A program made the position numbers and the translations under genes. Of a stretch of DNA of 64,000 bases, positions 7,403-55,819 are shown piece by piece. Position 1 is the first letter of the stretch, and each line of letters opens with the position of its first letter. The notes under the pieces are model-generated. The model searched no databases. It was not told the DNA's origin and saw nothing but the letters and a program-made list of their open reading frames with translations. The stretch comes from Thermodesulfobacteriota bacterium (GTDB lineage: Bacteria > Desulfobacterota_D > UBA1144 > Nemesobacterales > Nemesobacteraceae), in assembly GCA_047518015.1 (NCBI GenBank), contig JAKZRS010000034.1:9382-73381 (forward strand), given 5' to 3'.

Positions 7403-8755
7403 ATGAGTAATTTCCCTGAATACCTTGAGCGTGGTGAGAGAGCACGTCTTTTTCCAGTTTTGGCGGATACTTCAAAAGAAGGACGTAGCACAGCAATTCT
7501 ATTATCGTGCTTGGTCCATGTTCGTGAATTCGGTCAATCCATGCTGGGCTCGGTTAGTCAGAAGATTGGAAAACTTGCAAATCTCAAAGCATACACTGAG
7601 GTCACATTCAACGGAAAGACTCAGCGGCCGGATGGTCTGATTGTTCTAAGAGTAGGCAGACGTGAATGGAGAGCTCTCCTTGAAACAAAGGTCGGAAACA
7701 CCAAGTTGGATCAAGAGCAAATTTCTGACTACATGGAGCTTGCCAAAGAACAAAATATTGATGCCGTAATCACTATCTCAAACCAATTCACATCGCGACC
7801 GGATCATCACCCGATCAAGCTACCCACAAAAACACGTTTGAAGGTAGAAGTCTATCATTGGTCATGGATGTATATAATCACGCAAGCCGACTTGCTGATT
7901 TCCAACAAAAGCATTGAAGATGAGGATCAGCATTTCATCTTAACCGAAATGGTACGGTTTCTTACACACTCAAGTACGGGAGTAAAAAGCTTTGACCGAA
8001 TGCCCCCTGCTTGGACCGATGTTGTACAAAAAGTTGCAGATGGTGCTCCACTCCAAGCAAGAAGCGAAGAAATACAAGATGTTGTAGCCGCTTGGCATCA
8101 AGAGGTTCGGGATATTAGTCTAATGCTGAGCCGACAAGTTAATGTGAAGGTCGAAGTCAAGTTATCACGTTCTCACGTATTGGATCCAGCAACTCGAGTA
8201 AAGGAAGATATCGCCAAACTTGTCAAAAACCATACACTCTCTGCTAAATTGGAAGTACAGAATGCCGCCGCATCAATTGACTTAGTCGCAGACATAAAGA
8301 GACGAACCATAAGCGCATCAATGATGCTAATGGCACCCAGCAACAGAAAAACTACTGCTTCCCGTCTCCATTGGTTGCTACAACAACTACAGAAATCCTC
8401 AGAAACGGATATTCACATAAAATTACATTGGCCCGGGCGCAAAGCTCACACACAACACGCTTTAAAAGAATTAAGAGAGAATTCAAAAATTGCTTGGGAA
8501 AGCACCAAAGACCGACATGTTGTTAGATTTGAAATCTGCATGATTCGTCAGTTGACCAAACGTTTCGGGCAACGAAAGAATTTTATAGATGAGTTGGAAA
8601 ATTTAGTCTCCAGTTTTTACGAAACTGTTGGTCAACGTCTGCGTGCTTACCAATCTCCAGCTCCTAGGGTTCGTGAGGACCGAGTTGATCCAGGAAGTGT
8701 TACCCCTGAGGGACTACAGCGCACAGCTAAAGAAGAAAAATCCGAACATATGTAA
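7403..8755 (+). CDS. hypothetical 450-aa protein with an N-terminal RecB/Cas4-like PD-(D/E)xK nuclease motif set and a long alpha-helical C-terminal region
   Basis: N-terminal region has ERARL (conserved Glu in helix), PDGLIVL (Asp), LETKVGN (ExK) and QISDY (QxxxY), the motif order of RecB-family nucleases. No Walker A elsewhere. AT-richer codon usage than flanking genes, judged by eye. Preceded by a 156-nt AT-rich spacer containing palindromes. Confidence 0.5.
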   Translation: MSNFPEYLERGERARLFPVLADTSKEGRSTAILLSCLVHVREFGQSMLGSVSQKIGKLANLKAYTEVTFNGKTQRPDGLIVLRVGRREWRALLETKVGNTKLDQEQISDYMELAKEQNIDAVITISNQFTSRPDHHPIKLPTKTRLKVEVYHWSWMYIITQADLLISNKSIEDEDQHFILTEMVRFLTHSSTGVKSFDRMPPAWTDVVQKVADGAPLQARSEEIQDVVAAWHQEVRDISLMLSRQVNVKVEVKLSRSHVLDPATRVKEDIAKLVKNHTLSAKLEVQNAAASIDLVADIKRRTISASMMLMAPSNRKTTASRLHWLLQQLQKSSETDIHIKLHWPGRKAHTQHALKELRENSKIAWESTKDRHVVRFEICMIRQLTKRFGQRKNFIDELENLVSSFYETVGQRLRAYQSPAPRVREDRVDPGSVTPEGLQRTAKEEKSEHM

Positions 8756-13527: not shown

Positions 13528-13851
13528 ATGAGCAGAATACGTGATCAGATTAAAAACCGCCGAAAAAAACTCGCCCTAAAGCAAAAAGATATGATGTTGC
13601 GCGTCGGCATGTCAAGACAGCAGTACCAGCGGCTGGAATCCAGAGGAAACCCACGCTTAGACACTCTTGAGCTTGTTGCCAAGGGGCTTAGGATGGAAGT
13701 TGTACTTGTTCCGCAGGAAAAACTGCGCTTGGTTCGCGACATACTGGAAGGAAAAACCCATATAGGTTCAGGCGCTGAATTTGATTTCAGCCTTACAGTG
13801 GAAAACGAAACGGTTTCTGATAACCCCTGGAAAGGGCTGCTGGAGGAGTGA
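13528..13851 (+). CDS. hipB: XRE-family HTH antitoxin (HipB-like)
   Basis: 107 aa; HTH segment LALKQKDMMLRVGMSRQQYQRLESRGNPRLDTLELVAKGL; 4-nt overlap (ATGA-type) with the downstream hipA-like gene. Confidence 0.7.
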   Translation: MSRIRDQIKNRRKKLALKQKDMMLRVGMSRQQYQRLESRGNPRLDTLELVAKGLRMEVVLVPQEKLRLVRDILEGKTHIGSGAEFDFSLTVENETVSDNPWKGLLEE

Positions 13852-15119
13852 TCGTGAGCGGCGCAGAAGAAGTCAATGTTCTAGAACTCACCCTGCACGG
13901 CATGAAAGTCGGATACCTGACGGGCCACAAAGACGGCCGAAATGTCCTTACGTTCACGCCTGAGTTTACAGGGAGCAGTTCGCGACCAACCTTTACTCTG
14001 ACAACGCATCCGGATTTTCCTAACGTAAAAAACCTGCTTGCAAAGCCTTGGTCAAAGAGACAGAGACTGCATCCGGTGCTGTCCAATCTGTTGCCCGAAG
14101 GAGTATTGAAAGAGTTGCTGGCGCAAAGTCTGAAAATCCATATTGACAACGAATTCGAGTTGCTCGCCCGTCTTGGAGAGGATTTGCCCGGGGCTCTGAT
14201 CGTCACTGTCGCAGAACCCGGTGAAGTTCCCGGCTACGCATTGGCAGACAGAGCAAAAGCCATCAAAGCCGACATACGGAGTGGCGCAAAACATTTTTCT
14301 CTGGCCGGCGTACAAATGAAATTCTCAATGAGAGAACAGGATGGACGCTATCGAATTGCTGAATCAGGAGATCTTGGGGACTGGATCATCAAGACCCCGT
14401 CCACCAGACACAAACTTGTTCCCTTAAACGAGTTCACCGCCATGCGGCTTGCGCAGACAGCGGGCGTCGATATACCGGATATCCGGCTGGTTGAAATGAG
14501 TGCCATAGACAAGCTCCCCGCTATCAACCTCCCTGAAGAAGAATTCGCATTTGCCATAAGGCGGTTTGACCGCGTGGGCGAGAAACGCATTCACACAGAG
14601 GACTTCGCCCAAGTTCTGGTGAAGTACCCGCAGCAGAAGTATGACGGTCCGAACTACGAGCAGATAGGAAAGATCATTTATCAGTACACCGGCGACAGCC
14701 TCAGAAACGCCCAGCAGTTCGCCCGACGATTACTGGTCAACATTCTATTGGCCAATGGTGACGCTCACCTAAAAAACTGGTCTCTGATCTATCCCGACAC
14801 GGTCACGCCGGAACTTTCCCCCGCCTACGATCTCGTGATCACTCGCGTTTATATAGGTGACAAGAGGGAATACGCGTTGAATTTAGACAGGAACAAGGAC
14901 TGGTATAAAACCACATTCAGTCATTTTAAAGCCTGGGCGGACAAAGCCGGTATTCCATGGAAAGCCATTAAACCGCCGCTTGACGACACGCTGGATAAAG
15001 CGCGCTCTCTCTGGCCAAGATTTCTTGACGACCTACCCATGGACTATGCTCAAAAAAAAGAACTCAAAGAGCACTGGCGACTGCTGTCCGCAGACTTTCG
15101 GATTGAGACCGATAGATAG
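13848..15119 (+). CDS. hipA: HipA-family serine/threonine kinase toxin
   Basis: 423 aa; N-terminal HipA_N-like region and C-terminal catalytic loop LLVNILLANGDAHLKNWSL (DxHxKN motif). Confidence 0.8.
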   Translation: MIVSGAEEVNVLELTLHGMKVGYLTGHKDGRNVLTFTPEFTGSSSRPTFTLTTHPDFPNVKNLLAKPWSKRQRLHPVLSNLLPEGVLKELLAQSLKIHIDNEFELLARLGEDLPGALIVTVAEPGEVPGYALADRAKAIKADIRSGAKHFSLAGVQMKFSMREQDGRYRIAESGDLGDWIIKTPSTRHKLVPLNEFTAMRLAQTAGVDIPDIRLVEMSAIDKLPAINLPEEEFAFAIRRFDRVGEKRIHTEDFAQVLVKYPQQKYDGPNYEQIGKIIYQYTGDSLRNAQQFARRLLVNILLANGDAHLKNWSLIYPDTVTPELSPAYDLVITRVYIGDKREYALNLDRNKDWYKTTFSHFKAWADKAGIPWKAIKPPLDDTLDKARSLWPRFLDDLPMDYAQKKELKEHWRLLSADFRIETDR

Positions 15120-15644: not shown

Positions 15645-18380
15645 ATGCGGGGAAAAAGAGAAATATTCAACGAGCTTCCGTTCGTTTCGAATTTCGAGAA
15701 AGACAAGACCGATTTTCTGCTTAAAATCGGCGAACTGATAGAAGTGCCCGAACGCTACGTTCTCACCAAGCAGTTCGAACCGAGCCATTCTTTTTATTTC
15801 CTCGTCGAGGGCCTAGTGAATTTCTCAATCAGCGTCGAGGACAGAACCGACGAATTCTCGGTGGGGAAAAGCAGCGAAAAGTTCACGCCCGTAGGCTGGT
15901 CTGGCTTTCGCTCTCCCAAACGTTACTACACGACAATTGTATGCGAAAAGCCCTGCGTCCTGCTAAAATGGAGTCACCAGAATCTTGAGAAGTTCTTCGA
16001 TCAGGAACCTCTTCTTGGACGCGAATTTCTTCTGTTCGTTCTCAGCAAAAGCATAAACCTCCTAAAGCATGTTCGAGCTGAACTTGCTGAATACAATAAC
16101 GTCAACTGGGACATGGAGGCGGGAAAAACGGGCGGTTTCTCCCAGGAAGGAAAATACATATCCGTGCCTAACCCGCTTCAGCTTCTGAGACAATCCCCTT
16201 TTTTCGAGGTTTTTCCCGACAGAACGTTGCGTCAACTGGCAAAAGCGACCCAGAAAAAATACTATCTGAACAATGAACCCATATTTAATCAGGAAGATAT
16301 TTCCGAAGGAATAGACATACTGGCTTACGGAAAGGCCGTACTGTGCTTCTCGCCCGACGGTTCGCAGGGCGGAGTTGAGGAATCCGTGGCACTTCGCCTG
16401 ATTAACCTTCCCGGATACCTGGTCGGCTGGATGGGCGCCGCCCCCGCCGGGCCAAACGACGTTACGGCTGTTGCGAGCAGAAATTCGGTTATCTATCACA
16501 TAAGCGCCCTCAATCTTCACAAAATCCTGAATCAGGACCCATCCATGGCCCTAGCTCTAGCCAGAAGACTTCTGTGGCTGGTATCGATCCGGCTGCGAAA
16601 TGTCCGCGCGGGACTCATATCGCAAAGATACGAACGCGAAATACTGGCCATAAGCAATCTTATCGGGCAAAACGCCATGCAGTTAAGCGTAAACTCGCCT
16701 ATTCATAAGCTACCTCATCTGCTAAACAACCCGCTGACACTCGATGACGCTTTTCGGCTTCTGTTCAGACTGGAAAAAGAGGGCGAGAGTCTTGAGAGGG
16801 AACTCTCCCGTCTCAGCCTTGATATCCTCGGAAAGATCTACAAGGAATACAACTTTTTCGAGGGACTAAAAAACGTCTATCAGTCCGTGACCGCAGCACC
16901 CAAGTCACTTTCTCCAAGCGAAATAAGAACCATGGCGGCCAAGCAGTTCATGGGCGTTTTCAAGAGCACTCCTTACGTAATCGAAGGCTGGGAGAATCTG
17001 CCTGATGAGCCGGGACACATATTCATATACAATCATCTGCTGAACCATCCCTACAACACTCTGCCCAACCATTTTCAGATTACGCTCGATTCTCACTTCA
17101 TAAGCTCGATGGTTCTTTACGCCAAGTACGGCGAAGCCGGGATCCGGGTTGTCCGAGTGCCCAGGGCGGAAGAATACGGACACGAATACTACTACCAAAG
17201 GCTCGGACACATTAACGTTTACACCGACGAATCCGACACTACCAAGCAAACTTCCGAGCGGAAAAAAGCGTGGAGGAAAAAGTTCTACAAAACGGCCAGT
17301 GGATACCTGAAGAAAGGATTTAACATAGTAATAAGTCCAGAGGGAACCAGCATGACGACGGAGGAATCGCCCGGTCCGTTCAAGCTCGGCGCTTTTCTTC
17401 TGGCCGCATCCATTTCGCCCGAGCCTTATATCGTTCCCATAGCGGCAGCGAATTTTGACAAAAGAATAAACCAGAACGTGTTCTCCCTGGTAATAAAAAA
17501 GCCTTTCAGGATATCCGATTACGTCAAAAACCCCGAGGAGAACAAAGACAGGCTCTTTGAGTTTGTTAAGGAATACGGAAACGAGTACAGAACATACGTG
17601 GAAGAGGCGGCGGGACTTGCGAGACGGGTGGAATCCACCAAGATCAACTTAAAAACTTTTGAGCAGGTCGAAAAAGATTTCCTTGTAATCGATAAGAACC
17701 TGTTTGAGCAGGATGTAAGGATTCTTGAAAGACGTCACGTCGGGAAAAAGAATAACGCCACGGTGTTTTACGGCAGTTCAAGCTTTCGCCTCTGGAGAGG
17801 CATGGCAAGGGATTTTTCCGAATATAACGTCGTGAACCTGGGTTTCGGCGGCGCCAGGATCGCCTACTGCCTGCATTATTTCAAACGCCTCATAAAACCA
17901 AATGACGCTAAATCCCTGGTTTTCTACGCGGGCGATAACGATATCGGGGACGGCTGCCTGCCAAAGCAGGTGCTGAATCTCTTCGTGGATTTCTACCACC
18001 GCTTCAGAGAGTCCTATCCCCGCACCAAAATCACTTTTGTTTCCATAAAGCCCAGCCCCGTAAGATTCCATTTTCTTGACAGAATCACGGCATCAAACGA
18101 TCTCATAAGACAGTTCCTGTCAAGAGAACCCAACGCCTTTTACCTCAATGTCTACGACTACATGCTAAATGAGAATGGAGAGATAAGGGAAGAACTGTTC
18201 ACCGAAGACGGTCTTCATCTGAACAGGAAAGGATACGCTTTATGGAAAGAACTGTTTTTAGCAGACGCAAAAGAGATTTTTTATGATCCAAGGCCCGAAG
18301 AATCTGAAAAACGGGTTGAAATTCCCCCTCCGGGAAAAACCGAGCATACGCGAATATCCACAGACCTCAGCTTTAAATAG
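15645..18380 (+). CDS. multidomain protein: two cyclic-nucleotide-binding (cNMP/CAP-like) domains, a PlsC/LPLAT-like acyltransferase domain and a C-terminal SGNH/GDSL hydrolase domain
   Basis: 911 aa. FEPSHSFYFLVEGLVNF-type cNMP beta-roll segments appear twice in the first ~330 aa. FPEG-like acyltransferase block ISPEGTS. C-terminal SGNH blocks FYGSSSF, GFGGARI, YAGDNDI, DGLHLN. Confidence 0.65.
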   Translation: MRGKREIFNELPFVSNFEKDKTDFLLKIGELIEVPERYVLTKQFEPSHSFYFLVEGLVNFSISVEDRTDEFSVGKSSEKFTPVGWSGFRSPKRYYTTIVCEKPCVLLKWSHQNLEKFFDQEPLLGREFLLFVLSKSINLLKHVRAELAEYNNVNWDMEAGKTGGFSQEGKYISVPNPLQLLRQSPFFEVFPDRTLRQLAKATQKKYYLNNEPIFNQEDISEGIDILAYGKAVLCFSPDGSQGGVEESVALRLINLPGYLVGWMGAAPAGPNDVTAVASRNSVIYHISALNLHKILNQDPSMALALARRLLWLVSIRLRNVRAGLISQRYEREILAISNLIGQNAMQLSVNSPIHKLPHLLNNPLTLDDAFRLLFRLEKEGESLERELSRLSLDILGKIYKEYNFFEGLKNVYQSVTAAPKSLSPSEIRTMAAKQFMGVFKSTPYVIEGWENLPDEPGHIFIYNHLLNHPYNTLPNHFQITLDSHFISSMVLYAKYGEAGIRVVRVPRAEEYGHEYYYQRLGHINVYTDESDTTKQTSERKKAWRKKFYKTASGYLKKGFNIVISPEGTSMTTEESPGPFKLGAFLLAASISPEPYIVPIAAANFDKRINQNVFSLVIKKPFRISDYVKNPEENKDRLFEFVKEYGNEYRTYVEEAAGLARRVESTKINLKTFEQVEKDFLVIDKNLFEQDVRILERRHVGKKNNATVFYGSSSFRLWRGMARDFSEYNVVNLGFGGARIAYCLHYFKRLIKPNDAKSLVFYAGDNDIGDGCLPKQVLNLFVDFYHRFRESYPRTKITFVSIKPSPVRFHFLDRITASNDLIRQFLSREPNAFYLNVYDYMLNENGEIREELFTEDGLHLNRKGYALWKELFLADAKEIFYDPRPEESEKRVEIPPPGKTEHTRISTDLSFK

Positions 18381-18748
18381 CCCGTTACCGCCGACCGCGC
18401 TCCTTCCCCAAAGCGGGAATCAGAAGCCACATCTTTCTTTTTGAGTGACGCCCCCAGCTTGGAGAGAGCAAAACGTAATTACCTCGAAGCATCGGTGAGT
18501 CATCAAGACGAAAAGAGAGTTTGGCAGAACCTTCATAGCCCGAAACATACCTTCCCGAAACGGAAAAATCGGCTTTTGCCGAGCAAGACTGCCCGCGGAG
18601 AAAAACCCACAGGTCATTTTCCTCAAACTCGATCCCCAGAGCCTTCTGCCTTTTATCAATCCATCCCGCGTTTGGAAAAACCCAGTGGCGATAACCGCCC
18701 GTGAGTTCAAGGGAAAGGACAAAACAGGTGGTTTCCGAGACGATTTTC

Positions 18749-19525
18749 CTAACAGAGTATCTGAGAGTTGAGTTCATAGAGCAATCTAAGGCCGTGGAGA
18801 GCAAGATCTTTGTCAACCCGCGTCGTACAGGCGCACTCCTCACTCACCGCGTCAGCAAATCCCCCGGTGATTACAACCTCCGGAGAAGACCCCATCTCCT
18901 CTTTCAGTTTTGCACAGAGCCCGTCGATCATTGAAGCGTAACCATAAAACAGTCCCGACTGTATACATTCAACTGTGTCTTTGCCGATTACCTGTTCGGG
19001 CTTTTCGGGTTCTACCTTCGGAAGCTTTGATGTTCCGTGGTAAAGCGCTACTGTAGAAAGCTCGATCCCGGGAACTATCGCCCCACCCAGATATTCTCCT
19101 TTTTCAGAAACACAGTCAAAAGTAGTTGCCGTCCCGAGGTCAACCACTATCACACTTCCGCCGAAGCGGTGGTAAGCGGCAACGGCATTTGCTATCCTGT
19201 CGGCCCCGAGTTCTTCAGGATTATAAATCCGAATCGGCATGCCCGTTCTTGTCTCGGGACCCACGATTATGGGTGGATGACCGAAATATTTCTCTATCAA
19301 TTTCGCCACTCCCTCCTGCATTTCGGTAACCACACAGGAGAGTATGGCGCCGCTGAACGAAGAGGACGATATGTCATTCTCGTTCATCTTCCCGAAGAGG
19401 ATAATCCCGTAATCGTCAGGGCTTTTGGTCCTGTCTGTATCAATCCTGAAGCTGTATACAAGGTCCTCTCCGGAAAATATTCCGACCATTATGCTGGTGT
19501 TGCCGACGTCAATTGCGAGAAGCAT
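18749..19525 (-). CDS. coaX: type III pantothenate kinase
   Basis: MLLAIDVGNTSIMVGIF N-terminus; 258 aa; ASKHA fold typical of CoaX. Confidence 0.85.
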   Translation of the reverse strand: MLLAIDVGNTSIMVGIFSGEDLVYSFRIDTDRTKSPDDYGIILFGKMNENDISSSSFSGAILSCVVTEMQEGVAKLIEKYFGHPPIIVGPETRTGMPIRIYNPEELGADRIANAVAAYHRFGGSVIVVDLGTATTFDCVSEKGEYLGGAIVPGIELSTVALYHGTSKLPKVEPEKPEQVIGKDTVECIQSGLFYGYASMIDGLCAKLKEEMGSSPEVVITGGFADAVSEECACTTRVDKDLALHGLRLLYELNSQILC

Positions 19526-19960: not shown

Positions 19961-20719
19961 ATGGAGAAATTATACAATAACCCTGCGTGGCGCCGTATCA
20001 GAGGATTGCGTGGTTTCGGAATTCTTGCTTTATCAGTAGCCTTCTGTCTTACCGGATTGCTCGCACTTTCTTCCTGTGATCTTGAGTTTTGGGAGGACGA
20101 TGATGGTGAAGCGGCACCGGAAGCGATGGAGATGAGAGGGTTTTTTACGAGTGCTGACGAGAATGGTGACACGGTCTGTAGTTTTGAAGACACTAACGTG
20201 TTTCTGGAAGGAGATGAGGCTACCGGAAAACTTGACGTCAAGATGGTTGGTGGGAGTGACCAGTTCGATGCGAAATTCGGACACGTGGGGATAAAGCTCA
20301 TTAATGATATGGGTGATAAGACTATTGTAACCGCTTACGCATCTCAATCTGATGACGACCAGGAAAACTATGTTCATCCCGGGTCATATTATCTCGCTTC
20401 AACAACCGACAGTGACATTGCCGGAGGAGAAACAATATTCGCCGGTTACTGGGTCGGCCACCTTTATCGCGGCGACAACCACGTGGTTTTATGTCCGTAC
20501 GTGCTGGTACCAAGGAGCATGTCAGATAAAGAAGACTGTGGCGGAATGACGACGACGGTAGATGGTGTAGAATCGACGACGAATGGAATGGATGCAGACA
20601 TGGTCCACGAGGGGCTGCAAAAATATCTTACACAGGAGGATGGCGACAGCGGACTCGAACTGAGAGCATGCTACTCCGTTTTTGATGATGATGGCTTCGT
20701 CTCGCCCACGCAGGACTAA
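19961..20719 (+). CDS. hypothetical acidic lipoprotein
   Basis: Lipobox LLALSSC; good RBS AAGGAGGG and a TATAAT upstream; Asp/Glu-rich mature region; no recognisable family. Confidence 0.55.
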   Translation: MEKLYNNPAWRRIRGLRGFGILALSVAFCLTGLLALSSCDLEFWEDDDGEAAPEAMEMRGFFTSADENGDTVCSFEDTNVFLEGDEATGKLDVKMVGGSDQFDAKFGHVGIKLINDMGDKTIVTAYASQSDDDQENYVHPGSYYLASTTDSDIAGGETIFAGYWVGHLYRGDNHVVLCPYVLVPRSMSDKEDCGGMTTTVDGVESTTNGMDADMVHEGLQKYLTQEDGDSGLELRACYSVFDDDGFVSPTQD

Positions 20720-26916: not shown

Positions 26917-27744
26917 ATGAGCAGAATGCTTAAGAATCGGAAGACAAGTTTTTGGGTCTTTGTGTTCGCTGTAGGAATGATTTTCGGTGTTTCCGGCAAC
27001 GCAGTTGCCCAAAGCGGCGGTTTTTACGTCGGTGTTTCGGCCGGGGTTGAGCGCGCGAGCATAGAACACGCAAAGACCGTTGACAGTACTGATGTTCCGG
27101 AGGATTTTCTGCAGAACGGAAACATTTATAACACAAGTGATTCCGCAAGTGAAACGGGTTTTGGAGGCGGGTTGTTTTTGGGCTACCGGTTTAACCTGGA
27201 CCCAAGCGGCACTCTATATTTAGGCGCCGAGATTGACGGGCGGTTCCACGGCGGCACAGCAAGCGGAATGCTTCCCGGAGAAGGACGGTCCCAAGGTCGA
27301 AACCAGTACGGAGAAGCCTGGCCCGATGAGTGGAGCGTTGAGAGGAAAAACAGCTACGGGGCAACCTTTATGCTCGGCGTGAGTCCCCCGTTTCTGATTT
27401 CGCTTGTGGGCCCGGGTGCGGGCGTCTACGTGCTTGGCGGCCTGCGCCGCATGGACGCGGAGTTAACGGTTGATTCCAATGGTTGCTTGACTCCACGCGA
27501 GCTTTGCGGTCCCGGAGATCTAACTCCAGGCACCAACTCCTACGACGAGACTTTCTACGGATGGACGGTCGGAGGAGGCCTTGAGAAGATGATCGGAGAC
27601 AAGATAGGAATCCGGGGCGAGGTCCGCCACACGCAGTACGGAAAAGAAGACCGGGAAACTTTTCCGGATGCCCCTGTCAAGGTTCCTACATCACTTGAAG
27701 GGGATGAAACCAGTCTTTCGCTGGGAGCGGTTGTGTACTTCTGA
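26917..27744 (+). CDS. outer-membrane beta-barrel protein (OmpA-like/porin-family barrel)
   Basis: Signal peptide ending AVAQS; alternating hydrophobic beta-strand pattern; C-terminal AVVYF (terminal Phe) typical of OMPs. Confidence 0.6.
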   Translation: MSRMLKNRKTSFWVFVFAVGMIFGVSGNAVAQSGGFYVGVSAGVERASIEHAKTVDSTDVPEDFLQNGNIYNTSDSASETGFGGGLFLGYRFNLDPSGTLYLGAEIDGRFHGGTASGMLPGEGRSQGRNQYGEAWPDEWSVERKNSYGATFMLGVSPPFLISLVGPGAGVYVLGGLRRMDAELTVDSNGCLTPRELCGPGDLTPGTNSYDETFYGWTVGGGLEKMIGDKIGIRGEVRHTQYGKEDRETFPDAPVKVPTSLEGDETSLSLGAVVYF

Positions 27745-49780: not shown

Positions 49781-50872
49781 TTATCTTTCTCTCCAAGATA
49801 CCATGGTCGGATACGAATTCTTCTTTCTCAGGTTTTTACGTATAACAGCCCGAATCTCCCTTGACACTGGGATTTCCTCCCCCACTATGCCGGTGGAGAC
49901 TGCAGTATAGACATCGCTTTTTCCACCTTTAAGAACCACGCCGGAAATACCGGAACTTATCTTCAGACTGGAGTCTACTCTCTTTAAGATTTTCTTGGTT
50001 TCCCTGGCCGATATAATCCTTTTGGTACTCCTGCGCGTTATTATCTCGTCTGCCATTCTCCCGACAACGCTGTCTTTTAGTTCCTGGGAATTGCTTCCCC
50101 TCTCGGTGACTGAGACCTCGGCGGCTTTAATGGTAGCCATTATCACCGTTTTTGAAGCGGTGCTGAAATTAACCTGCTTATCCTTAGGATACACGGTCAG
50201 ATAGTCCCTGACCTTGAAAAAGAAATCCTTATCTATCCCCTGAATCATCCTAATTTCCTCAACGCTGTCAAGCGGTCCGTCCTTGATATAATAAGGATTT
50301 TCAAGTTCCGCGTAATAGGCTGCAGCGGCACCATCGGGATCCTGATCGTTTCCCGCCCCTTGTGCCGCCCCGTCAAGCCAGTTTACAAGGCTCGCCACGA
50401 AGAGATTGGCCTTCTCCGTTTCCACCCCGAGAAATCGGAAAAGTTCATTTAGCTGCGTGCGGACCTGAAAATCCACCCGGTTTGATTTCTGATCCACAAG
50501 TGCGTTGAGGTTGACTTTTGATCTCTCGTCTATGACCCCAAGGGATATGTTTCCAGATCCAATGGGAAAAGAACTGATGGAAAGTCCCCAGCCACCGGCA
50601 CCGTTCTGCGACTTTATTGCCTGCGCGAGCACTCCCTTGGGCACCGGAATTTCCTCAAGGGTTTTTTTTCTCAGGATTCCTCGCACGACTCTTACCCCTG
50701 ATTTCGCTATATGCCTTGCCTGCACATCGCTTGAACTGTTGACGGAAATCTCGTAACTCACGCGGGTCGAGTACATGAAATCAATCACAATCGTGGAAAG
50801 TATCGCAATCGTTATGACAACGATAACGAGTACTATTCCTCTCTGCGCTCTTTCTGAATCTGCTCTCCGCAT
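49781..50872 (-). CDS. gspK: type II secretion minor pseudopilin GspK
   Basis: N-terminal prepilin-like hydrophobic helix GIVLVIVVITIAILSTIVID; roughly 360 aa; last gene of the pseudopilin block. Confidence 0.65.
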   Translation of the reverse strand: MRRADSERAQRGIVLVIVVITIAILSTIVIDFMYSTRVSYEISVNSSSDVQARHIAKSGVRVVRGILRKKTLEEIPVPKGVLAQAIKSQNGAGGWGLSISSFPIGSGNISLGVIDERSKVNLNALVDQKSNRVDFQVRTQLNELFRFLGVETEKANLFVASLVNWLDGAAQGAGNDQDPDGAAAAYYAELENPYYIKDGPLDSVEEIRMIQGIDKDFFFKVRDYLTVYPKDKQVNFSTASKTVIMATIKAAEVSVTERGSNSQELKDSVVGRMADEIITRRSTKRIISARETKKILKRVDSSLKISSGISGVVLKGGKSDVYTAVSTGIVGEEIPVSREIRAVIRKNLRKKNSYPTMVSWRER

Positions 50873-51547
50873 TCAGTCAGCCACCGGTATAGCAACAATC
50901 ATGGAATGGGTTTCCTCTTGACCCCCGTCCCCAACAAGAACAATCTGGACCTGAACGGCTTCAGGAAATCCTCGCATCACAGACGAATCCCACTCCCACA
51001 CCTTTTGCTCGTTAGCCGAGCCTGGCGATCGCTCGGTAAGAAAATTCACCCGAAAACTAAGCACTCTCTCCGAAATCGGGTACGCGGCTCCGGCTTCATC
51101 GTTTCCGATCCAGTAATTATCCTTCCTCATAAGGGCGAACATATCCCCGTGCTCGCCTCTAAGTGGAACCACGTAGTAGGATATCTCGCTCTGGCCGGAT
51201 TGGGTGGAATAATGCGTTGGGTCTTTCGCAAAAGAGGTAAAAACAATCCTGCTGTTCTCCCCTTCAAGCCTCCCGGTAAAATAGCGATAAGCGGAGGGAG
51301 AAAAAGTTTCGGAGTTGATGTTTCCTCTGGGAAATGCATTCACCAGGTCATGGCGCATCTTAATCAGGATAGTGTTTACCTCCTGGATCAGCTCGTTTTC
51401 CGTTTCTACTCTGCGTTTGGCGGTTATGAGCTGGGAAAAAGAACTATAGAGCATCGTAAGCACGATGACCGTTATACTAACGGCGATAAGAATCTCTAGA
51501 AGTGTAAAACCGCTTTCATCATCCCGAATCGACGAAGTTGATTTCAT
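50873..51547 (-). CDS. gspJ: type II secretion pseudopilin GspJ
   Basis: Prepilin cleavage/methylation motif GFTLLEILIAVSI. Confidence 0.65.
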   Translation of the reverse strand: MKSTSSIRDDESGFTLLEILIAVSITVIVLTMLYSSFSQLITAKRRVETENELIQEVNTILIKMRHDLVNAFPRGNINSETFSPSAYRYFTGRLEGENSRIVFTSFAKDPTHYSTQSGQSEISYYVVPLRGEHGDMFALMRKDNYWIGNDEAGAAYPISERVLSFRVNFLTERSPGSANEQKVWEWDSSVMRGFPEAVQVQIVLVGDGGQEETHSMIVAIPVAD

Positions 51548-51893
51548 AGCTCTCCTCCCCGTCGTCCCAAGTTATAAGAATACTAACGATATTCATTTTC
51601 GCTTCGAATTGCGGCAAATTGTAGGGAGCGACCACGATATGCCACTCAAAACCCGGATGATTATCAAACTCTCCGCTTCTTTGCGAATCCAAGGGGAGCC
51701 CCTCGGCGTCAATCCGGGAAGCTATTTCATCAGCGAGGCTCGTGGCGATCAGATAGTTCGTGGACTTTGTGGCGAGATTGATATTATGGCCCACGATGCC
51801 AAGGATAGACACCATTGCGAAGGAAAGCAACGCCACGGCGACCATAACTTCAAGCAGAGTGAACCCGCAAACGCTTTTTTTCGAGACCTTCAT
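51519..51893 (-). CDS. gspI: type II secretion pseudopilin GspI
   Basis: GFTLLEVMVAVALL; 124 aa. Confidence 0.65.
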   Translation of the reverse strand: MKVSKKSVCGFTLLEVMVAVALLSFAMVSILGIVGHNINLATKSTNYLIATSLADEIASRIDAEGLPLDSQRSGEFDNHPGFEWHIVVAPYNLPQFEAKMNIVSILITWDDGEESYEINFVDSG

Positions 51894-51906
51894 CCCGTTT
51901 TTTCCC

Positions 51907-52440
51907 CTACTGCTCCGTCACGCTTTGAAGCCGGTTGTTAAATTCAACGTATTTATCAAAAACTTTCGTGGCCCCGGTATAGGGATTTGTGGAAAGCGTG
52001 AAAAAATTATCCTTACCGGTTTTCAGATGAATAACCGCCGAGTCAACAATCCCCGTTGGCAAAAAAAGTATAAACGTGTCTCTTCCAGAACCAACCTTGC
52101 CCTGAGTTCTCTCCGTCTGTATATCGTTGAAGAAAACTCCGCTTGGAAGCTTTTTTCGACCATATCCCGAACTCTCTTCAGAACTAAACTGGTTTCCCTG
52201 AAGAACCTCCACCCAGTATTCTCCGGCATCAATATCGAAAGAAAGCTTGTATATCCGCTTCTCAAAAACAGACTTGCTGTACAGGTACCTTATCGTCGTG
52301 ACAAGCCCTCTTGAAGCGCTACGCAGGCTCATGTCACCCGTTTTGAAAACCCGCGGCATCGCCACGGAGAAAAAAGCTCCGAGCAGAAAAACTACCACCA
52401 TGATCTCAATTAAGGTAAAACCCGCGGATTTTCTTCTCAT
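51907..52440 (-). CDS. gspH: type II secretion pseudopilin GspH
   Basis: GFTLIEIMVVVFLLG; 177 aa. Confidence 0.65.
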   Translation of the reverse strand: MRRKSAGFTLIEIMVVVFLLGAFFSVAMPRVFKTGDMSLRSASRGLVTTIRYLYSKSVFEKRIYKLSFDIDAGEYWVEVLQGNQFSSEESSGYGRKKLPSGVFFNDIQTERTQGKVGSGRDTFILFLPTGIVDSAVIHLKTGKDNFFTLSTNPYTGATKVFDKYVEFNNRLQSVTEQ

Positions 52441-52856
52441 CTGTCTCTGCTGGACAGATCATCATCCGAATTCCCTACACCATCCGGACCGTTAGACCTA
52501 ATATAGTACAATCCATCCTCGGTCTGGTCAGCTCCGAAATATATAAACTCGTTTCCCCAAGGATCAAACGGCACATTTGCGGACTCCAGATAACGCCTCC
52601 ATCTTCTGGCTTCCCTGCCCACCGCTACTGGGTCGATCAGAGCACGCAGCCCCTGCTGGGTTTCGGGATAAAAACCATTATCAAACTTAAACAACTGAAG
52701 CGCCTGCTCAAACTGCTTGATCTGAATCAGGGCCTGTTTTTCCTTTGCCCTCTCCCCCTGACCTATCACGTTCGTGCCCACTATGTAGGCAAGTCCCGCG
52801 ATGATAAGCACGACCACCATAATTTCAATCAGAGTAAATCCCATCTGGGATCTCAT
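52437..52856 (-). CDS. gspG: type II secretion major pseudopilin GspG
   Basis: GFTLIEIMVVVLIIAGLA; 139 aa; conserved GspG body (FDNGFYP). Confidence 0.85.
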   Translation of the reverse strand: MRSQMGFTLIEIMVVVLIIAGLAYIVGTNVIGQGERAKEKQALIQIKQFEQALQLFKFDNGFYPETQQGLRALIDPVAVGREARRWRRYLESANVPFDPWGNEFIYFGADQTEDGLYYIRSNGPDGVGNSDDDLSSRDR

Positions 52857-52873
52857 TTTTTCTGCCTCCCTGT

Positions 52874-54082
52874 TCAGCTTATTACCGAAGTTAAATTCAA
52901 CACGGGTAAAAGTATAGCGAAAACTATAAAACCCATAATAACTCCCATAATCAGTATCATTACCGGTTCAAGAAGAGAAGTCAGCGTGGAAAGCATGCCG
53001 TCGACCTCAGTGTCGTACATATCGGCCACCTTCGAGAGCATGACTTCAACTTTGCCGGCTTCCTCGCCCACAGAGACCATTCTTACCACAAGGGGCGGGA
53101 AAATCCCGGTCTGCCCAAGACAGTCTCCAAACGCCGAGCCTTCCGCCACCTTGACCCGGACATCCCTGATATTGTCAACATAAAGACTGTTTCCAAGAAC
53201 TGATTCGCTCACCTTAACCGCGTCAAGAAGAGGAATACCGCTTGAAAGCAGCGTGGCAAGCGTCCTTGTAAAACGGGAGATCATCACTTTTGAAGACATT
53301 TTCCCGAACACAGGAATCCGAAGGGATAATCTGTCGTAGATCTTTTTTCCAGAAGGGGTGTTCACGTATCTGTGCGCAAAAAAGAATACGACGGCCATAA
53401 AAACCAGCAACAGGGCAAAATTCTCCCTGAGAAAATCGCTTGCACCTATAAGAACTACGGTAACAAAAGGCAAAGCTTTGTTGCTGGCCTCGAAGATATC
53501 GGCGACTTTGGGAATTACGAAAGTCATCATGAAGACAAGTACCCCCATCCCGACGACAAACATTATCGCCGGATATATCATGGCGCCCCTGATCTTCGAA
53601 GTGAGTTCCAGCTGTTTTTCAAGAAAATCCGCGAGACGGTCTAGCACAACGTCAAGAGTACCGCTTGCCTCGCCCGCGCGGACCATGCTGACGTAAAGGT
53701 CGGAAAAAACGCTTTTGTGCTCTTCAAGTGCAGCGTGAAGAGAACTACCTTCACTCAGTCGGTTTCTGACCTCGGAGAGAATCTCCTTCAGCTTCTGGTC
53801 ATCGGTCTGCTCGTAGAGAGCCACAAGCGACGTCTCAAGAGGAAGACCGGCAGAAATCAACGTGGAGAACTGCCTTGTCATAACGGCAAGTTCCGAGATG
53901 CTCACCCCGCTCCACGGAAGGCTTCTCGACGAACGACGAGCCCCGGTCGCCTCCTTTATGGAGGAGAGGTAGACTCCGCCTTTTCTGAGCTTGTCGCTTG
54001 CGAGCTTGACCGATTCTGCGCTGATAACCCCCTTTACCGATTCCCCTTTGTCGTTAATAGCTTTATAGTTGTAAACAGGCAT
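52874..54082 (-). CDS. gspF: type II secretion inner-membrane platform protein GspF
   Basis: 402 aa; two T2SSF repeats; three TM segments. Confidence 0.9.
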   Translation of the reverse strand: MPVYNYKAINDKGESVKGVISAESVKLASDKLRKGGVYLSSIKEATGARRSSRSLPWSGVSISELAVMTRQFSTLISAGLPLETSLVALYEQTDDQKLKEILSEVRNRLSEGSSLHAALEEHKSVFSDLYVSMVRAGEASGTLDVVLDRLADFLEKQLELTSKIRGAMIYPAIMFVVGMGVLVFMMTFVIPKVADIFEASNKALPFVTVVLIGASDFLRENFALLLVFMAVVFFFAHRYVNTPSGKKIYDRLSLRIPVFGKMSSKVMISRFTRTLATLLSSGIPLLDAVKVSESVLGNSLYVDNIRDVRVKVAEGSAFGDCLGQTGIFPPLVVRMVSVGEEAGKVEVMLSKVADMYDTEVDGMLSTLTSLLEPVMILIMGVIMGFIVFAILLPVLNLTSVIS

Positions 54083-54118
54083 TTTGTTGAAATACCGATG
54101 CTAAAAGACAACCCCGGG

Positions 54119-55804: not shown

Positions 55805-55819
55805 TTTTTAAAAACTTCC

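What the first reader, a model, noticed from the sequence alone, without database searches (positions are those of the whole stretch)
15645..18380. Unusual 911-aa fusion: tandem cNMP-binding domains + glycerolipid acyltransferase-like domain + SGNH hydrolase
The N-terminal roughly 330 aa look like two CAP/CRP-type cyclic-nucleotide-binding beta-rolls. The middle has an LPLAT/PlsC-like block (ISPEGTS = FPEGT motif III, NHF...LDSHF region). The C-terminal roughly 200 aa have all four SGNH blocks (GSSS, GGARI, GDND, DGLHLN). Coupling a second-messenger sensor to both an acyl-transfer and an acyl-hydrolase activity suggests cNMP-gated lipid or glycan acyl remodelling. I do not recognise this architecture as a described family.
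Basis: partly seen in the sequence, partly recalled or inferred. Interest (0 to 1): 0.5.

Follow-up and report, generated by a model that had tools for sequence, protein, structure and literature searches.

The report
Sensor-acyltransferase-esterase fusion of a conserved operon
This is a real 911-residue protein of a Dadabacteria chromosome, made by fusing a conserved two-gene pair: a sensor-linked PlsC-like acyltransferase and its partner SGNH esterase. The family is widespread and I found no study of it, and its sensor pocket does not look like a standard cAMP/cGMP site.

Summary
The ORF (15645-18380, +) and all three domain calls hold.
- **Not an artefact:** 22 of 22 Dadabacteria genome loci checked keep an open 903-924-codon frame, in conserved synteny.
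- **Origin of the fusion:** a ~650-690-aa CNB-CNB-AT protein occurs in several phyla. In 7 of 9 contexts an orthologous ~195-214-aa GDSL gene lies directly downstream. The fusion point is about residue 680.
- **Other fused forms:** they appear at six or more separate positions on an NJ tree, including cultured Marinomonas, Flagellimonas and Reichenbachiella.
  - The conserved catalytic His is H464, not H476. It pairs with D482 as H-X17-D rather than HX4D.
  - CNB-A has an invariant Trp where the canonical Glu sits. CNB-B also lacks the Arg. cAMP/cGMP gating is therefore unproven and doubtful.
- **Best reading (inferred):** a ligand-gated, soluble or peripheral module that cycles an acyl ester on and off a phosphate-bearing lipid-like substrate.
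- **Literature:** five full-text searches found nothing on this family.

The parts
15645..18380 (+). Whole gene: 911-aa CNB-CNB-acyltransferase-SGNH fusion protein, including the stop codon
   Evidence: ORF. There are 25 clusters of full-length homologues at 54-95% identity. The frame is intact at 22 of 22 genome loci checked.
15645..16094 (+). CNB-A (aa 1-150). A beta-roll with a highly conserved but non-canonical phosphate-binding cassette, G84-W85-S86-G87-F88..P91.R93-Y94.T96-T97. The W85 codon is 15897-15899 and the R93 codon is 15921-15923.
   Evidence: Pfam second stretch. hhalign against CRP. Family profile hit to DNR, residues 6-143, E 3.6e-7. W85 is present in 165 of 171 sequences and R93 in 170 of 171. 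Model pLDDT is about 90.
16158..16634 (+). CNB-B (aa 172-330). A beta-roll plus a long C-helix. Its cassette is degenerate: W262, and N271 (codon 16455-16457) at the Arg position.
   Evidence: Pfam best stretch 205-298. hhalign against PKA RI-alpha, probability 95%. Profile hits to PKG and PKA CNB domains, E down to 5e-15. Foldseek finds tandem-CNB matches at E about 1e-13.
16635..16964 (+). All-helical connector (aa 331-440) between the sensor and the acyltransferase core. It contains conserved residues such as E332, S351, E384 and E401.
   Evidence: DSSP on the model gives helices 332-440. Invariant columns. No transmembrane segment: the maximum Kyte-Doolittle 19-residue window is 1.36.
16965..17639 (+). 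Acyltransferase core of the GPAT/AGPAT (LPLAT) fold (aa 441-665). Key residues: H464 (17034-17036), D482 (17088-17090), R504, E510, H513, P565-E566-G567 and P598.
17640..17684 (+). Fusion junction and disordered linker (aa 666-680). It corresponds to the former stop codon, intergenic spacer and start codon of the two-gene form.
   Evidence: pLDDT is below 50 for residues 665-680. The split GDSL protein of L001 begins 'MINENLYERD', aligned to window 'VIDKNLFEQD' at about aa 681.
17685..18284 (+). SGNH (GDSL-type) hydrolase domain (aa 681-880). Key residues: S712 (17778-17780), G736, N765, D855 and H858 (18216-18218).
   Evidence: Pfam Lipase_GDSL_2, E 1.1e-12. PDB hits: 6njc sialate O-acetylesterase/'lysophospholipase L1' at E 1.4e-9, and 2hsj PAF-acetylhydrolase-like at E 2.9e-6. 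It is 50% identical to the split partner in L001 and 44% to the one in L003. The blocks are conserved in fused, split and solo forms.
18285..18380 (+). Disordered C-terminal tail (aa 881-911) plus the stop codon. It is present only in the close Dadabacteria relatives.
   Evidence: pLDDT is below 50 for residues 884-911. Alignment occupancy is low.

Best explanation
The gene encodes a soluble or peripherally membrane-associated, ligand-regulated enzyme with two catalytic domains. It arose when two adjacent, co-transcribed genes fused.

**The two ancestral genes**
- Gene 1 carries a tandem CNB sensor, a helical connector and a PlsC/GPAT-fold acyltransferase. The acyltransferase uses H464, with D482 at the start of the next helix as the charge-relay partner. 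These two residues are separated by a 13-residue family-specific loop inserted into the usual HX4D motif.
- Gene 2 is a small SGNH esterase of the PAF-acetylhydrolase / sialate-O-acetylesterase-like branch. Its Ser712, Gly736, Asn765 and Asp855-His858 are all intact.

**Proposed mechanism (inferred)**
- The acyltransferase puts an acyl group from an acyl-CoA or acyl-ACP donor onto a hydroxyl of a phosphate-bearing glycerolipid-like acceptor.
- The SGNH domain removes an ester-linked acyl group from the same class of molecule.
- Together they form a deacylation/reacylation cycle, in the manner of a Lands cycle or a writer/eraser pair.
- The balance between the two activities is set by a ligand bound at the strongly conserved CNB-A pocket. 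CNB-B acts mainly as a structural or transducing module.

**What is shown and what is inferred**
- Shown: the domain identities, the intact catalytic residues, the operon pairing, the recurrent fusion, and the absence of transmembrane segments.
- Inferred: the substrate class, the direction of regulation and the identity of the ligand. A standard cAMP/cGMP ligand is not favoured by the pocket residues.
For: **Domains and folds**
- establish the domains and folds.

**Catalytic and binding residues, counted across 175 homologues**
- H464 173/175.
- D482 174/175.
- R504 173/175.
- P565 and E566 174/175 each, G567 173/175.
- P598 174/175.
- The SGNH blocks are conserved in fused, split and solo forms.

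**Operon pairing**
- The GDSL gene lies directly downstream in L001, L002, L003, L006, L034, L035 and L036. The spacing runs from a 17-nt gap to a 32-nt overlap.
- These partners are 44-50% identical to window residues 681-878.
- A patatin phospholipase gene follows the pair in L001 and L002.

**Recurrent fusion and stability**
- Fused forms sit at six or more separate positions on an NJ tree of the CNB-AT core.
- The fused frame is intact, and the TsaD-Dabb-gene-orf152-CoaX synteny is conserved in the Dadabacteria loci.

**Sensor**
- The CNB-A cassette is nearly invariant across phyla. This argues for a real ligand or contact site.
Against: - No biochemical data exist for any member, as far as five literature searches show.
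- The protein lacks the hydrophobic membrane-embedded helices of canonical PlsC, so a membrane lipid substrate is not assured.
- The nearest solved relatives of the SGNH domain are acetyl-specific esterases. In the one clade that lacks the GDSL partner, the adjacent gene is an AXE1-type deacetylase. Both points hint at short-chain or acetyl chemistry, possibly on a non-lipid substrate.
- Motif I is non-canonical (H-X17-D). I could not measure the distance between H464 and D482 because the tools do not return model coordinates.
- The PF01553 score is only just above its threshold.
- The NJ tree has no bootstrap support.
Confidence: 0.5

Rival explanations
1. The same fusion, but the chemistry is O-acetyl (short-chain) transfer and removal on a soluble metabolite, sugar or nucleotide-sugar rather than long-chain remodelling of membrane lipids. 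The module would work as an acetylation/deacetylation switch.
For: - The closest solved relatives of the SGNH domain are sialate O-acetylesterase (6njc, E 1.4e-9) and a PAF-acetylhydrolase-like protein (2hsj).
- In the clade without a GDSL partner, an AXE1 (acetyl xylan esterase / cephalosporin-C deacetylase family) gene is the immediate divergent neighbour.
- There are no transmembrane or strongly hydrophobic helices.
Against: - All strong structural relatives of the acyltransferase core handle long-chain acyl donors and lipid or glycerol-phosphate acceptors.
- A patatin phospholipase follows the pair in two loci.
- The conserved R504, at the position I infer to be motif II, fits a phosphate-bearing acceptor.
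- The AXE1 association rests on a single clade.
Confidence: 0.25
2. One reading: a canonical cAMP- or cGMP-gated enzyme. Both CNB domains bind a cyclic nucleotide as PKA-R or CRP do, and this switches the catalytic domains.
For: - Pfam cNMP_binding scores above its cut-off.
- The tandem CNB arrangement resembles PKA-R and PKG.
- CNB-A keeps the cassette Gly (G84) and an invariant Arg (R93) followed by x-A/S-T-T.
Against: - In CNB-A the Glu that binds the ribose 2'-OH is an invariant Trp, and the Ser/Thr after the Arg is Tyr.
- CNB-B has Asn, Gln, His or Thr at the Arg position, and Trp or Leu at the Glu position.
- The best PDB sequence relative of CNB-A is the DNR sensor domain, which, from my own knowledge, binds heme rather than a cyclic nucleotide.
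- CNB folds that bind other ligands are well documented. The nucleoside-binding trypanosome PKA-R structures appear among the fold hits.
- No cyclase gene was found among the 30 window ORFs scanned. This is weak evidence, because the window is only 64 kb.
Confidence: 0.2
3. The fusion is an assembly or sequencing artefact: a frameshift or lost stop codon joining two genes.
For: Related genomes carry the two parts as separate adjacent genes.
Against: - Twenty-two independent genome loci, several on chromosome-level records of 1.5-2.4 Mb, keep an open 903-924-codon frame.
- There are 25 protein clusters at 54-95% identity with the same length.
- Fused forms also occur in cultured Marinomonas, Flagellimonas and Reichenbachiella.
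Confidence: 0.01
4. A Pycsar- or CBASS-like anti-phage effector: a CNB sensor that activates a membrane-damaging lipid-modifying effector.
For: - PADLOC gives weak hits from the CNB-A region to Pycsar TIR effectors (E 7.7e-6 and 4.9e-4).
- A patatin gene lies next to the pair in L001 and L002.
Against: - The PADLOC hits cover only the CNB domain.
- No cyclase gene lies next to the gene in the window or in the nine split-form loci with called genes.
- The gene sits in fixed synteny among housekeeping genes (TsaD, Dabb, CoaX) in the Dadabacteria loci checked.
- The family is vertically widespread, with 359 representatives at E below 1e-30.
Confidence: 0.03

Closest known systems
PlsC / AGPAT-type lysophosphatidic acid acyltransferases (PF01553; TmPlsC, PDB 5KYM)
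   Same: - The catalytic His follows the first core strand: NH464 aligns to NH84 of TmPlsC.
- Motif III is (F/S)PEGT.
- A motif IV Pro (P598) is present, and an invariant Arg (R504) sits at the position I infer to be motif II.
   Different: - Motif I is H-X17-D, with a conserved 13-residue insert (LxNHxYNTLPNxF), instead of HX4D.
- There is no hydrophobic N-terminal two-helix membrane anchor.
- About 440 residues of sensor and helical connector precede the core.
- Sequence identity is only about 20%, and the Pfam score is marginal.
PAF acetylhydrolase Ib alpha-like / sialate O-acetylesterase-like SGNH hydrolases (PDB 6NJC, 7PZG, 2HSJ)
   Same: - All SGNH blocks are present and align over about 185 residues (E 1.4e-9).
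- The size (about 200 aa) is similar, and the Ser/Asp-His triad is intact.
   Different: - The family has its own signature: FYGSS[ST]xRLW, NLGFGG[SA]T, YAGDND and SIKPSP.
- It is cytoplasmic and is genetically or physically tied to an LPLAT acyltransferase.
- Its substrate is unknown.
Neuropathy target esterase / PNPLA6-type proteins (CNB domains + patatin lysophospholipase)
   Same: - A CNB-fold sensor is joined to a lipid acyl-ester-handling catalytic domain.
- The CNB sites are degenerate and their ligand is uncertain. This comparison rests on established knowledge, not on a test done here.
   Different: - The catalytic domains here are LPLAT and SGNH, not patatin.
- There is no transmembrane anchor.
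- No sequence relationship exists outside the CNB fold.
Mycobacterial cAMP-regulated protein acetyltransferase (MtPat/KATmt: CNB + GNAT)
   Same: - It is a bacterial enzyme with an N-terminal CNB domain that allosterically gates an acyl(acetyl)transferase. This comparison rests on established knowledge.
- A GNAT+CNB gene happens to lie about 2 kb from the family member in L033.
   Different: - It has a GNAT fold rather than an LPLAT fold.
- It has a single, canonical cAMP site.
- It has no esterase partner.
PKA/PKG regulatory modules (tandem CNB-A/CNB-B)
   Same: The tandem arrangement and the fold match (Foldseek E about 1e-13; profile E down to 5e-15).
   Different: - The cassette residues that define cNMP binding are altered in both domains.
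- The output is an enzyme in cis rather than a kinase subunit.

Membership tests
Cyclic nucleotide-binding domain (PF00027, CAP/PKA-R fold) | Eight-stranded beta-roll with flanking helices, recognised by the family profile | tested here: met
   Pfam 50.2 bits against a cut-off of 27.5, two stretches. Foldseek tandem-CNB hits at E about 1e-13. Profile hits to PKG, PKA, CRP and DNR.
Cyclic nucleotide-binding domain (PF00027, CAP/PKA-R fold) | Canonical phosphate-binding cassette G-E-x-x-L...P-R-[ST]-A (Glu to the ribose 2'-OH, Arg to the phosphate) | tested here: not met
   CNB-A reads G84-W85...R93-Y94: the Arg is kept, but Glu is replaced by an invariant Trp and Ser/Thr by Tyr. CNB-B has W262 and N271, so both Glu and Arg are absent.
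Cyclic nucleotide-binding domain (PF00027, CAP/PKA-R fold) | Actual binding of cAMP or cGMP | not testable with these tools
   This needs ITC or DSF on the purified N-terminal fragment, or ligand co-folding.
Glycerolipid acyltransferases (LPLAT/AGPAT, PF01553) | GPAT/PlsC alpha/beta core fold | tested here: met
   [not shown]
Glycerolipid acyltransferases (LPLAT/AGPAT, PF01553) | Motif I, H-X4-D catalytic dyad | tested here: not met
   The invariant H464 aligns to the PlsC catalytic His, but position +5 is Pro, Glu or Arg. The invariant Asp is D482, 18 residues later, at the N-terminus of the next helix. A functional dyad across a 13-residue insert is inferred, not shown.
Glycerolipid acyltransferases (LPLAT/AGPAT, PF01553) | Motif III (F-P-E-G) and a motif IV proline | tested here: met
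   S564-P565-E566-G567 is present in 173-174 of 175 sequences and aligns to FPEGT of 5kym. P598 is present in 174 of 175.
Glycerolipid acyltransferases (LPLAT/AGPAT, PF01553) | Membrane association through hydrophobic N-terminal helices (PlsC-type) | tested here: not met
   The maximum Kyte-Doolittle 19-residue window is 1.36. The helices that precede the core are not hydrophobic.
SGNH/GDSL hydrolases (PF13472) | Blocks I (Ser), II (Gly), III (Asn) and V (Asp-x-x-His) | tested here: met
   S712, G736, N765 and D855/H858 are present and align to 6njc. They are conserved in 27 of 28 sequences compared.
SGNH/GDSL hydrolases (PF13472) | Esterase activity and chain-length preference | not testable with these tools
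   This needs assays with pNP esters and lipid substrates.
Pycsar/CBASS-type defence effectors | Co-located nucleotide cyclase and a variable defence-island context | tested here: not met
   The neighbours are TsaD, Dabb and CoaX, in conserved synteny across the Dadabacteria loci checked. PADLOC hits only the CNB part, and weakly.

The most novel reading that the evidence does not exclude
The CNB-CNB-LPLAT plus SGNH module could be a widespread, previously unrecognised bacterial 'acyl switch'.
- It would be a writer/eraser pair, formally parallel to the eukaryotic LPCAT / PAF-acetylhydrolase cycle.
- It would set the acylation state of a specific phospholipid-like or metabolite signal.
- It would be controlled by a non-cyclic-nucleotide ligand read by a Trp-containing CNB pocket.
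- The acyltransferase would use a new split H...D catalytic motif.
Probability: 0.15. Interest if true: 0.7.

Novelty: new variant of a known kind. Interest (0 to 1): 0.45.

Why it matters
If the inferred mechanism holds, this family would be a direct, post-translational, ligand-gated control point for acyl-ester turnover in bacteria. I know of few such control points outside mycobacterial cAMP-regulated acetyltransferases and NTE-like esterases.

**Why the partnership looks real**
- The two genes pair in several phyla, and the fusion has recurred. This is classic 'Rosetta stone' evidence that the acyltransferase and the esterase work on the same pathway.

**Why it is testable**
- Fused forms occur in cultured Marinomonas mediterranea, Flagellimonas and Reichenbachiella species.
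- Split forms occur in Arcticibacterium and Marinilongibacter.

**Two sequence oddities that deserve structural attention**
- An interrupted HX4D motif.
- A Trp-for-Glu phosphate-binding cassette.

**Limits**
- All domains are known kinds.
- No function has been shown.
- No long-standing open question is resolved.

Tried and rejected
**Rejected explanations**
- Frameshift or assembly artefact: rejected. The frame is intact at 22 of 22 genome loci, and fused forms exist in cultured taxa.
- Defence-system effector: rejected as unlikely. PADLOC hits only the CNB part, weakly, and the locus is in housekeeping synteny.
H476 is Asn in most homologues, and H464 is the invariant His.

**Checks with negative or uninformative results**
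- Patatin partner near the fused gene: none in the window or in the Dadabacteria loci. It is seen only beside the split pair in L001 and L002.
- Functional clues from the window neighbours: none. They are ThiC, GSDH-like, TsaD, HipBA, Dabb, a 152-aa unknown, CoaX and an epimerase.
- Cyclase gene among 30 window ORFs scanned against Pfam: none seen.
- Promoter and terminator scan: no more sites than expected by chance.
- NCBIfam: only sub-threshold hits.
- Five literature searches for the architecture: nothing relevant.

**Not possible with these tools**
- A Foldseek search of afdb50: the library was unavailable.
- Measuring the H464-D482 distance or the inter-domain PAE: the tools do not expose model coordinates.
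Full report
**1. Observation**

An ATG-initiated ORF of 911 codons occupies 15645..18380 on the + strand. Pfam finds four families above their curated cut-offs:
- cNMP_binding in two stretches (E 2.7e-13).
- Acyltransferase PF01553, residues 467-600, at 25.3 bits against a cut-off of 23.
- Lipase_GDSL_2, residues 709-866 (E 1.1e-12).
- Lipase_GDSL.

NCBIfam has no model that reaches its threshold.

**2. Organism and locus**

- Close homologues are named Candidatus Dadabacteria, or Thermodesulfobacteriota in newer records. The closest genome locus is 97% identical (L007, OZ253668.1, a 1.92-Mb chromosome).
- The window is ordinary chromosomal DNA. It carries carbamoyl-phosphate synthase, ThiC, TsaD, GuaA/GuaB, GyrA, GlnA, an NtrB/NtrC-like pair and a type II secretion cluster.
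- The gene stands alone between a divergent Dabb gene and a convergent, conserved 152-aa ORF followed by CoaX. The neighbours give no functional hint.
- The order TsaD-(HipBA)-Dabb-gene-orf152-CoaX holds in the roughly two dozen Dadabacteria loci retrieved. HipBA is present in only some of them.

**3. The fusion is real, and it joins a conserved operon pair**

Evidence that the fused gene is real:
- A search of the 5.8-billion-protein collection gave 25 clusters of full-length, 879-911-aa, three-domain homologues at 54-95% identity.
- One-genome-per-species contigs gave 25 loci carrying the gene. All 22 that I translated have an uninterrupted 903-924-codon frame. A frameshift or assembly artefact is excluded.

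Evidence that it derives from two genes:
- A much larger set of ~650-690-aa proteins has only the CNB-CNB-acyltransferase part. These occur in other Dadabacteria-like genomes (53-57% identity), in Cytophagales such as Arcticibacterium, Marinoscillum and Marinilongibacter, in Acidobacteria and in others.
- In 7 of 9 distinct genomic contexts for this shorter form, a ~195-214-aa Lipase_GDSL_2 gene lies immediately downstream on the same strand. The spacing ranges from a 17-nt gap to a 32-nt overlap.
- That separate protein is orthologous to the C-terminal domain here. It is 50% identical in L001 and 44% in Arcticibacterium.
- The L001 protein begins exactly where the disordered linker of the fusion ends: MINENLYERD aligns to VIDKNLFEQD at about residue 681.

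Evidence that the fusion has recurred:
- An exhaustive HMMER scan of 1.84 billion cluster representatives found 359 relatives at E below 1e-30. Among them are further three-domain proteins only 30-37% identical to this one.
- Several of these come from cultured bacteria:
  - Marinomonas mediterranea: WP_013662188 / F2K2A6, 874 aa.
  - Flagellimonas / Allomuricauda: WP_252080184, 860 aa.
  - Reichenbachiella versicolor: WP_109829541, 809 aa.
- On a neighbour-joining tree of the CNB-AT core, fused forms occupy at least six separate positions among split forms. The tree has no bootstrap support, so this is indicative only.
- Recurrent fusion of adjacent genes is strong comparative evidence that the acyltransferase and the esterase act together.

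**4. Anatomy**

The full-length AlphaFold model has mean pLDDT 84 and pTM 0.65. The only disordered segments are 154-169, 665-680 (the fusion junction) and the tail 884-911.

*(a) Sensor, residues 1-330*
- These residues form a tandem CNB module like PKA-R and PKG (Foldseek E about 1e-13; profile hits down to E 5e-15).
- The residues that define cyclic-nucleotide binding are not canonical.
  - CNB-A has the cassette G84-W85-S86-G87-F88-x-x-P91-x-R93-Y94-x-T96-T97. It is almost invariant across phyla (W85 in 165 of 171 sequences, R93 in 170 of 171). Trp replaces the ribose-binding Glu and Tyr replaces the Ser/Thr.
  - CNB-B is poorly conserved. It has Asn, Gln, His or Thr where the Arg should be.
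- So the fold is a CNB fold, and CNB-A very probably has a specific ligand or contact site that could involve a phosphate. Canonical cAMP/cGMP binding is not supported.
- The best PDB sequence relative of CNB-A is the DNR sensor domain. Nucleoside-binding trypanosome PKA-R structures appear among the fold hits. Both are reminders that CNB folds often read other ligands.

*(b) Connector, residues 331-440*
- This is a conserved all-helical segment.

*(c) Acyltransferase, residues 441-665*
- The domain model has pLDDT 89.
- A family profile aligns NH464 to the catalytic NH84 of TmPlsC, and SPEGT to FPEGT.
- Invariant or near-invariant residues are N463, H464, D482, R504, E510, H513, Y517, P565-E566-G567 and P598.
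- The classical HX4D motif is interrupted. Thirteen conserved residues (LxNHxYNTLPNxF) lie between H464 and Q478-x-T-L-D482, and D482 sits at the N-terminus of the following helix, the position I recall the canonical Asp occupying. I infer that H464 and D482 form the dyad across an inserted loop. This is not shown.

*(d) Esterase, residues 681-880*
- This is an SGNH hydrolase with S712, G736, N765 and D855/H858.
- It is closest to sialate O-acetylesterase ('lysophospholipase L1', 6njc, E 1.4e-9) and to a PAF-acetylhydrolase-like protein (2hsj).
- Its family signature is shared by fused, split and solo relatives.

*(e) Location*
- There is no signal peptide and no transmembrane segment (maximum Kyte-Doolittle 19-residue window 1.36).
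- The protein is therefore cytoplasmic, and soluble or at most peripheral.

**5. Mechanism**

Shown:
- Two catalytically intact acyl-handling domains of opposite nominal direction, one a transferase and one a hydrolase.
- They are obligatorily linked in evolution and sit behind a conserved sensor.

Inferred:
- The pair runs a deacylation/reacylation cycle on a phosphate-bearing, glycerolipid-like substrate. This follows from the PlsC/GPAT fold, the conserved R504, and the patatin phospholipase that follows the pair in L001 and L002.
- Ligand binding at CNB-A sets the balance between the two activities.

The main rival:
- The chemistry could be short-chain or acetyl transfer on a soluble acceptor.
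- This is suggested by the acetyl-esterase relatives of the SGNH domain and by the lack of membrane helices.
- It is also suggested by the one clade where the GDSL partner is missing. There an AXE1-family deacetylase gene is the immediate divergent neighbour.
- I rate the lipid-remodelling reading at about 0.5 and the acetyl/soluble reading at about 0.25.
- Whether the ligand is a canonical cyclic nucleotide is a separate question. I rate that at about 0.2.

**6. Comparison with known systems**

- The protein works most like a regulated LPLAT plus lipid esterase. NTE/PNPLA6 (CNB + patatin) and mycobacterial MtPat (CNB + GNAT) are analogies from established knowledge. They are not relatives outside the CNB fold.
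- It is a member of the CNB fold family, the LPLAT fold superfamily and the SGNH superfamily.
- It fails the canonical cassette test, the HX4D spacing test and the PlsC membrane-anchor test.
- It is not a defence effector. PADLOC hits only the CNB part, weakly, and the locus sits in housekeeping synteny.
- Five full-text searches found no paper on the architecture. Public databases label members only as 'cyclic nucleotide-binding domain-containing protein' or 'GDSL-type esterase/lipase family protein'.

**7. Verdict**

- The finding is real and its domains were read correctly.
- It is an evolutionary fusion of a conserved operon pair, belonging to a widespread family on which I found no published study.
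- It is a new variant of known kinds rather than something categorically new.
- It is of moderate interest. The fusion gives a testable functional link, the sensor and motif I are unusual, and cultured hosts exist. Function remains inferred, and no major open question hinges on it.

Noticed in passing
window 13528-15119 (+): A HipB-like HTH gene (107 aa) and a HipA-family kinase toxin gene (423 aa) form a toxin-antitoxin pair between TsaD and Dabb. HipA is detected at this position in only about 10 of the 25 related Dadabacteria loci, so it is a variable insertion just upstream of the studied gene.
   Followed up: partly
window 18385-18843 (-): A conserved 152-aa ORF with no Pfam match. It converges on the studied gene, with stop codons 4 nt apart, and overlaps the 3' end of CoaX by about 95 nt. 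It is 59-90% identical across the related genomes, so it is probably a real gene whose true start lies further downstream.
   Followed up: partly
L026 1939-7394 (OZ242379.1) and L032 (same genome): In one Dadabacteria genome the fused gene is split within CNB-A by an insertion of about 3 kb. The insertion carries a 606-aa ORF with a weak, sub-threshold MULE-transposase match. The same genome has a second, partial, 48%-identical copy of the C-terminal part (L032). The gene therefore looks dispensable or degenerating in that lineage.
   Followed up: partly
L004 5031-5867 (-), L033 2453-3442 (-): In the clade of CNB-CNB-acyltransferase genes that lack a downstream GDSL gene, an AXE1-family (acetyl xylan esterase / deacetylase) gene is the immediate divergent neighbour. 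This could be a non-orthologous replacement of the esterase partner.
   Followed up: partly
L033 1-1502 (+): A GNAT (Acetyltransf_1) plus cNMP_binding protein, with the architecture of the mycobacterial cAMP-regulated acetyltransferase, lies about 2 kb upstream of the family member in this locus.
   Followed up: no
L001 8488-9528, L002 8775-9815 (+): A patatin-family phospholipase gene directly follows the split acyltransferase and GDSL pair in two Dadabacteria-like genomes. No patatin is found near the fused gene in the window or in the fused-gene loci.
   Followed up: yes
P0162 (JGI, 883 aa), SGNH block V: One divergent fused homologue has Asn in place of the catalytic His of the SGNH D-x-x-H block (DLLNPS). 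This may be an inactivated esterase domain.
   Followed up: no
window 49781-58375 (-): A type II secretion / secretin cluster (GspK-, GspF-, GspE- and GspD-like genes) lies in the window, together with an OMP beta-barrel gene at 26917-27744. Both are consistent with a diderm cell envelope in this small-genome lineage.
   Followed up: no
window 7403-8755 (+) and 19961-20719 (+): Two sizeable ORFs, of 450 aa and 252 aa, have no Pfam match. The 252-aa one is poorly conserved among otherwise syntenic relatives, mostly 37-64% identity.
   Followed up: no
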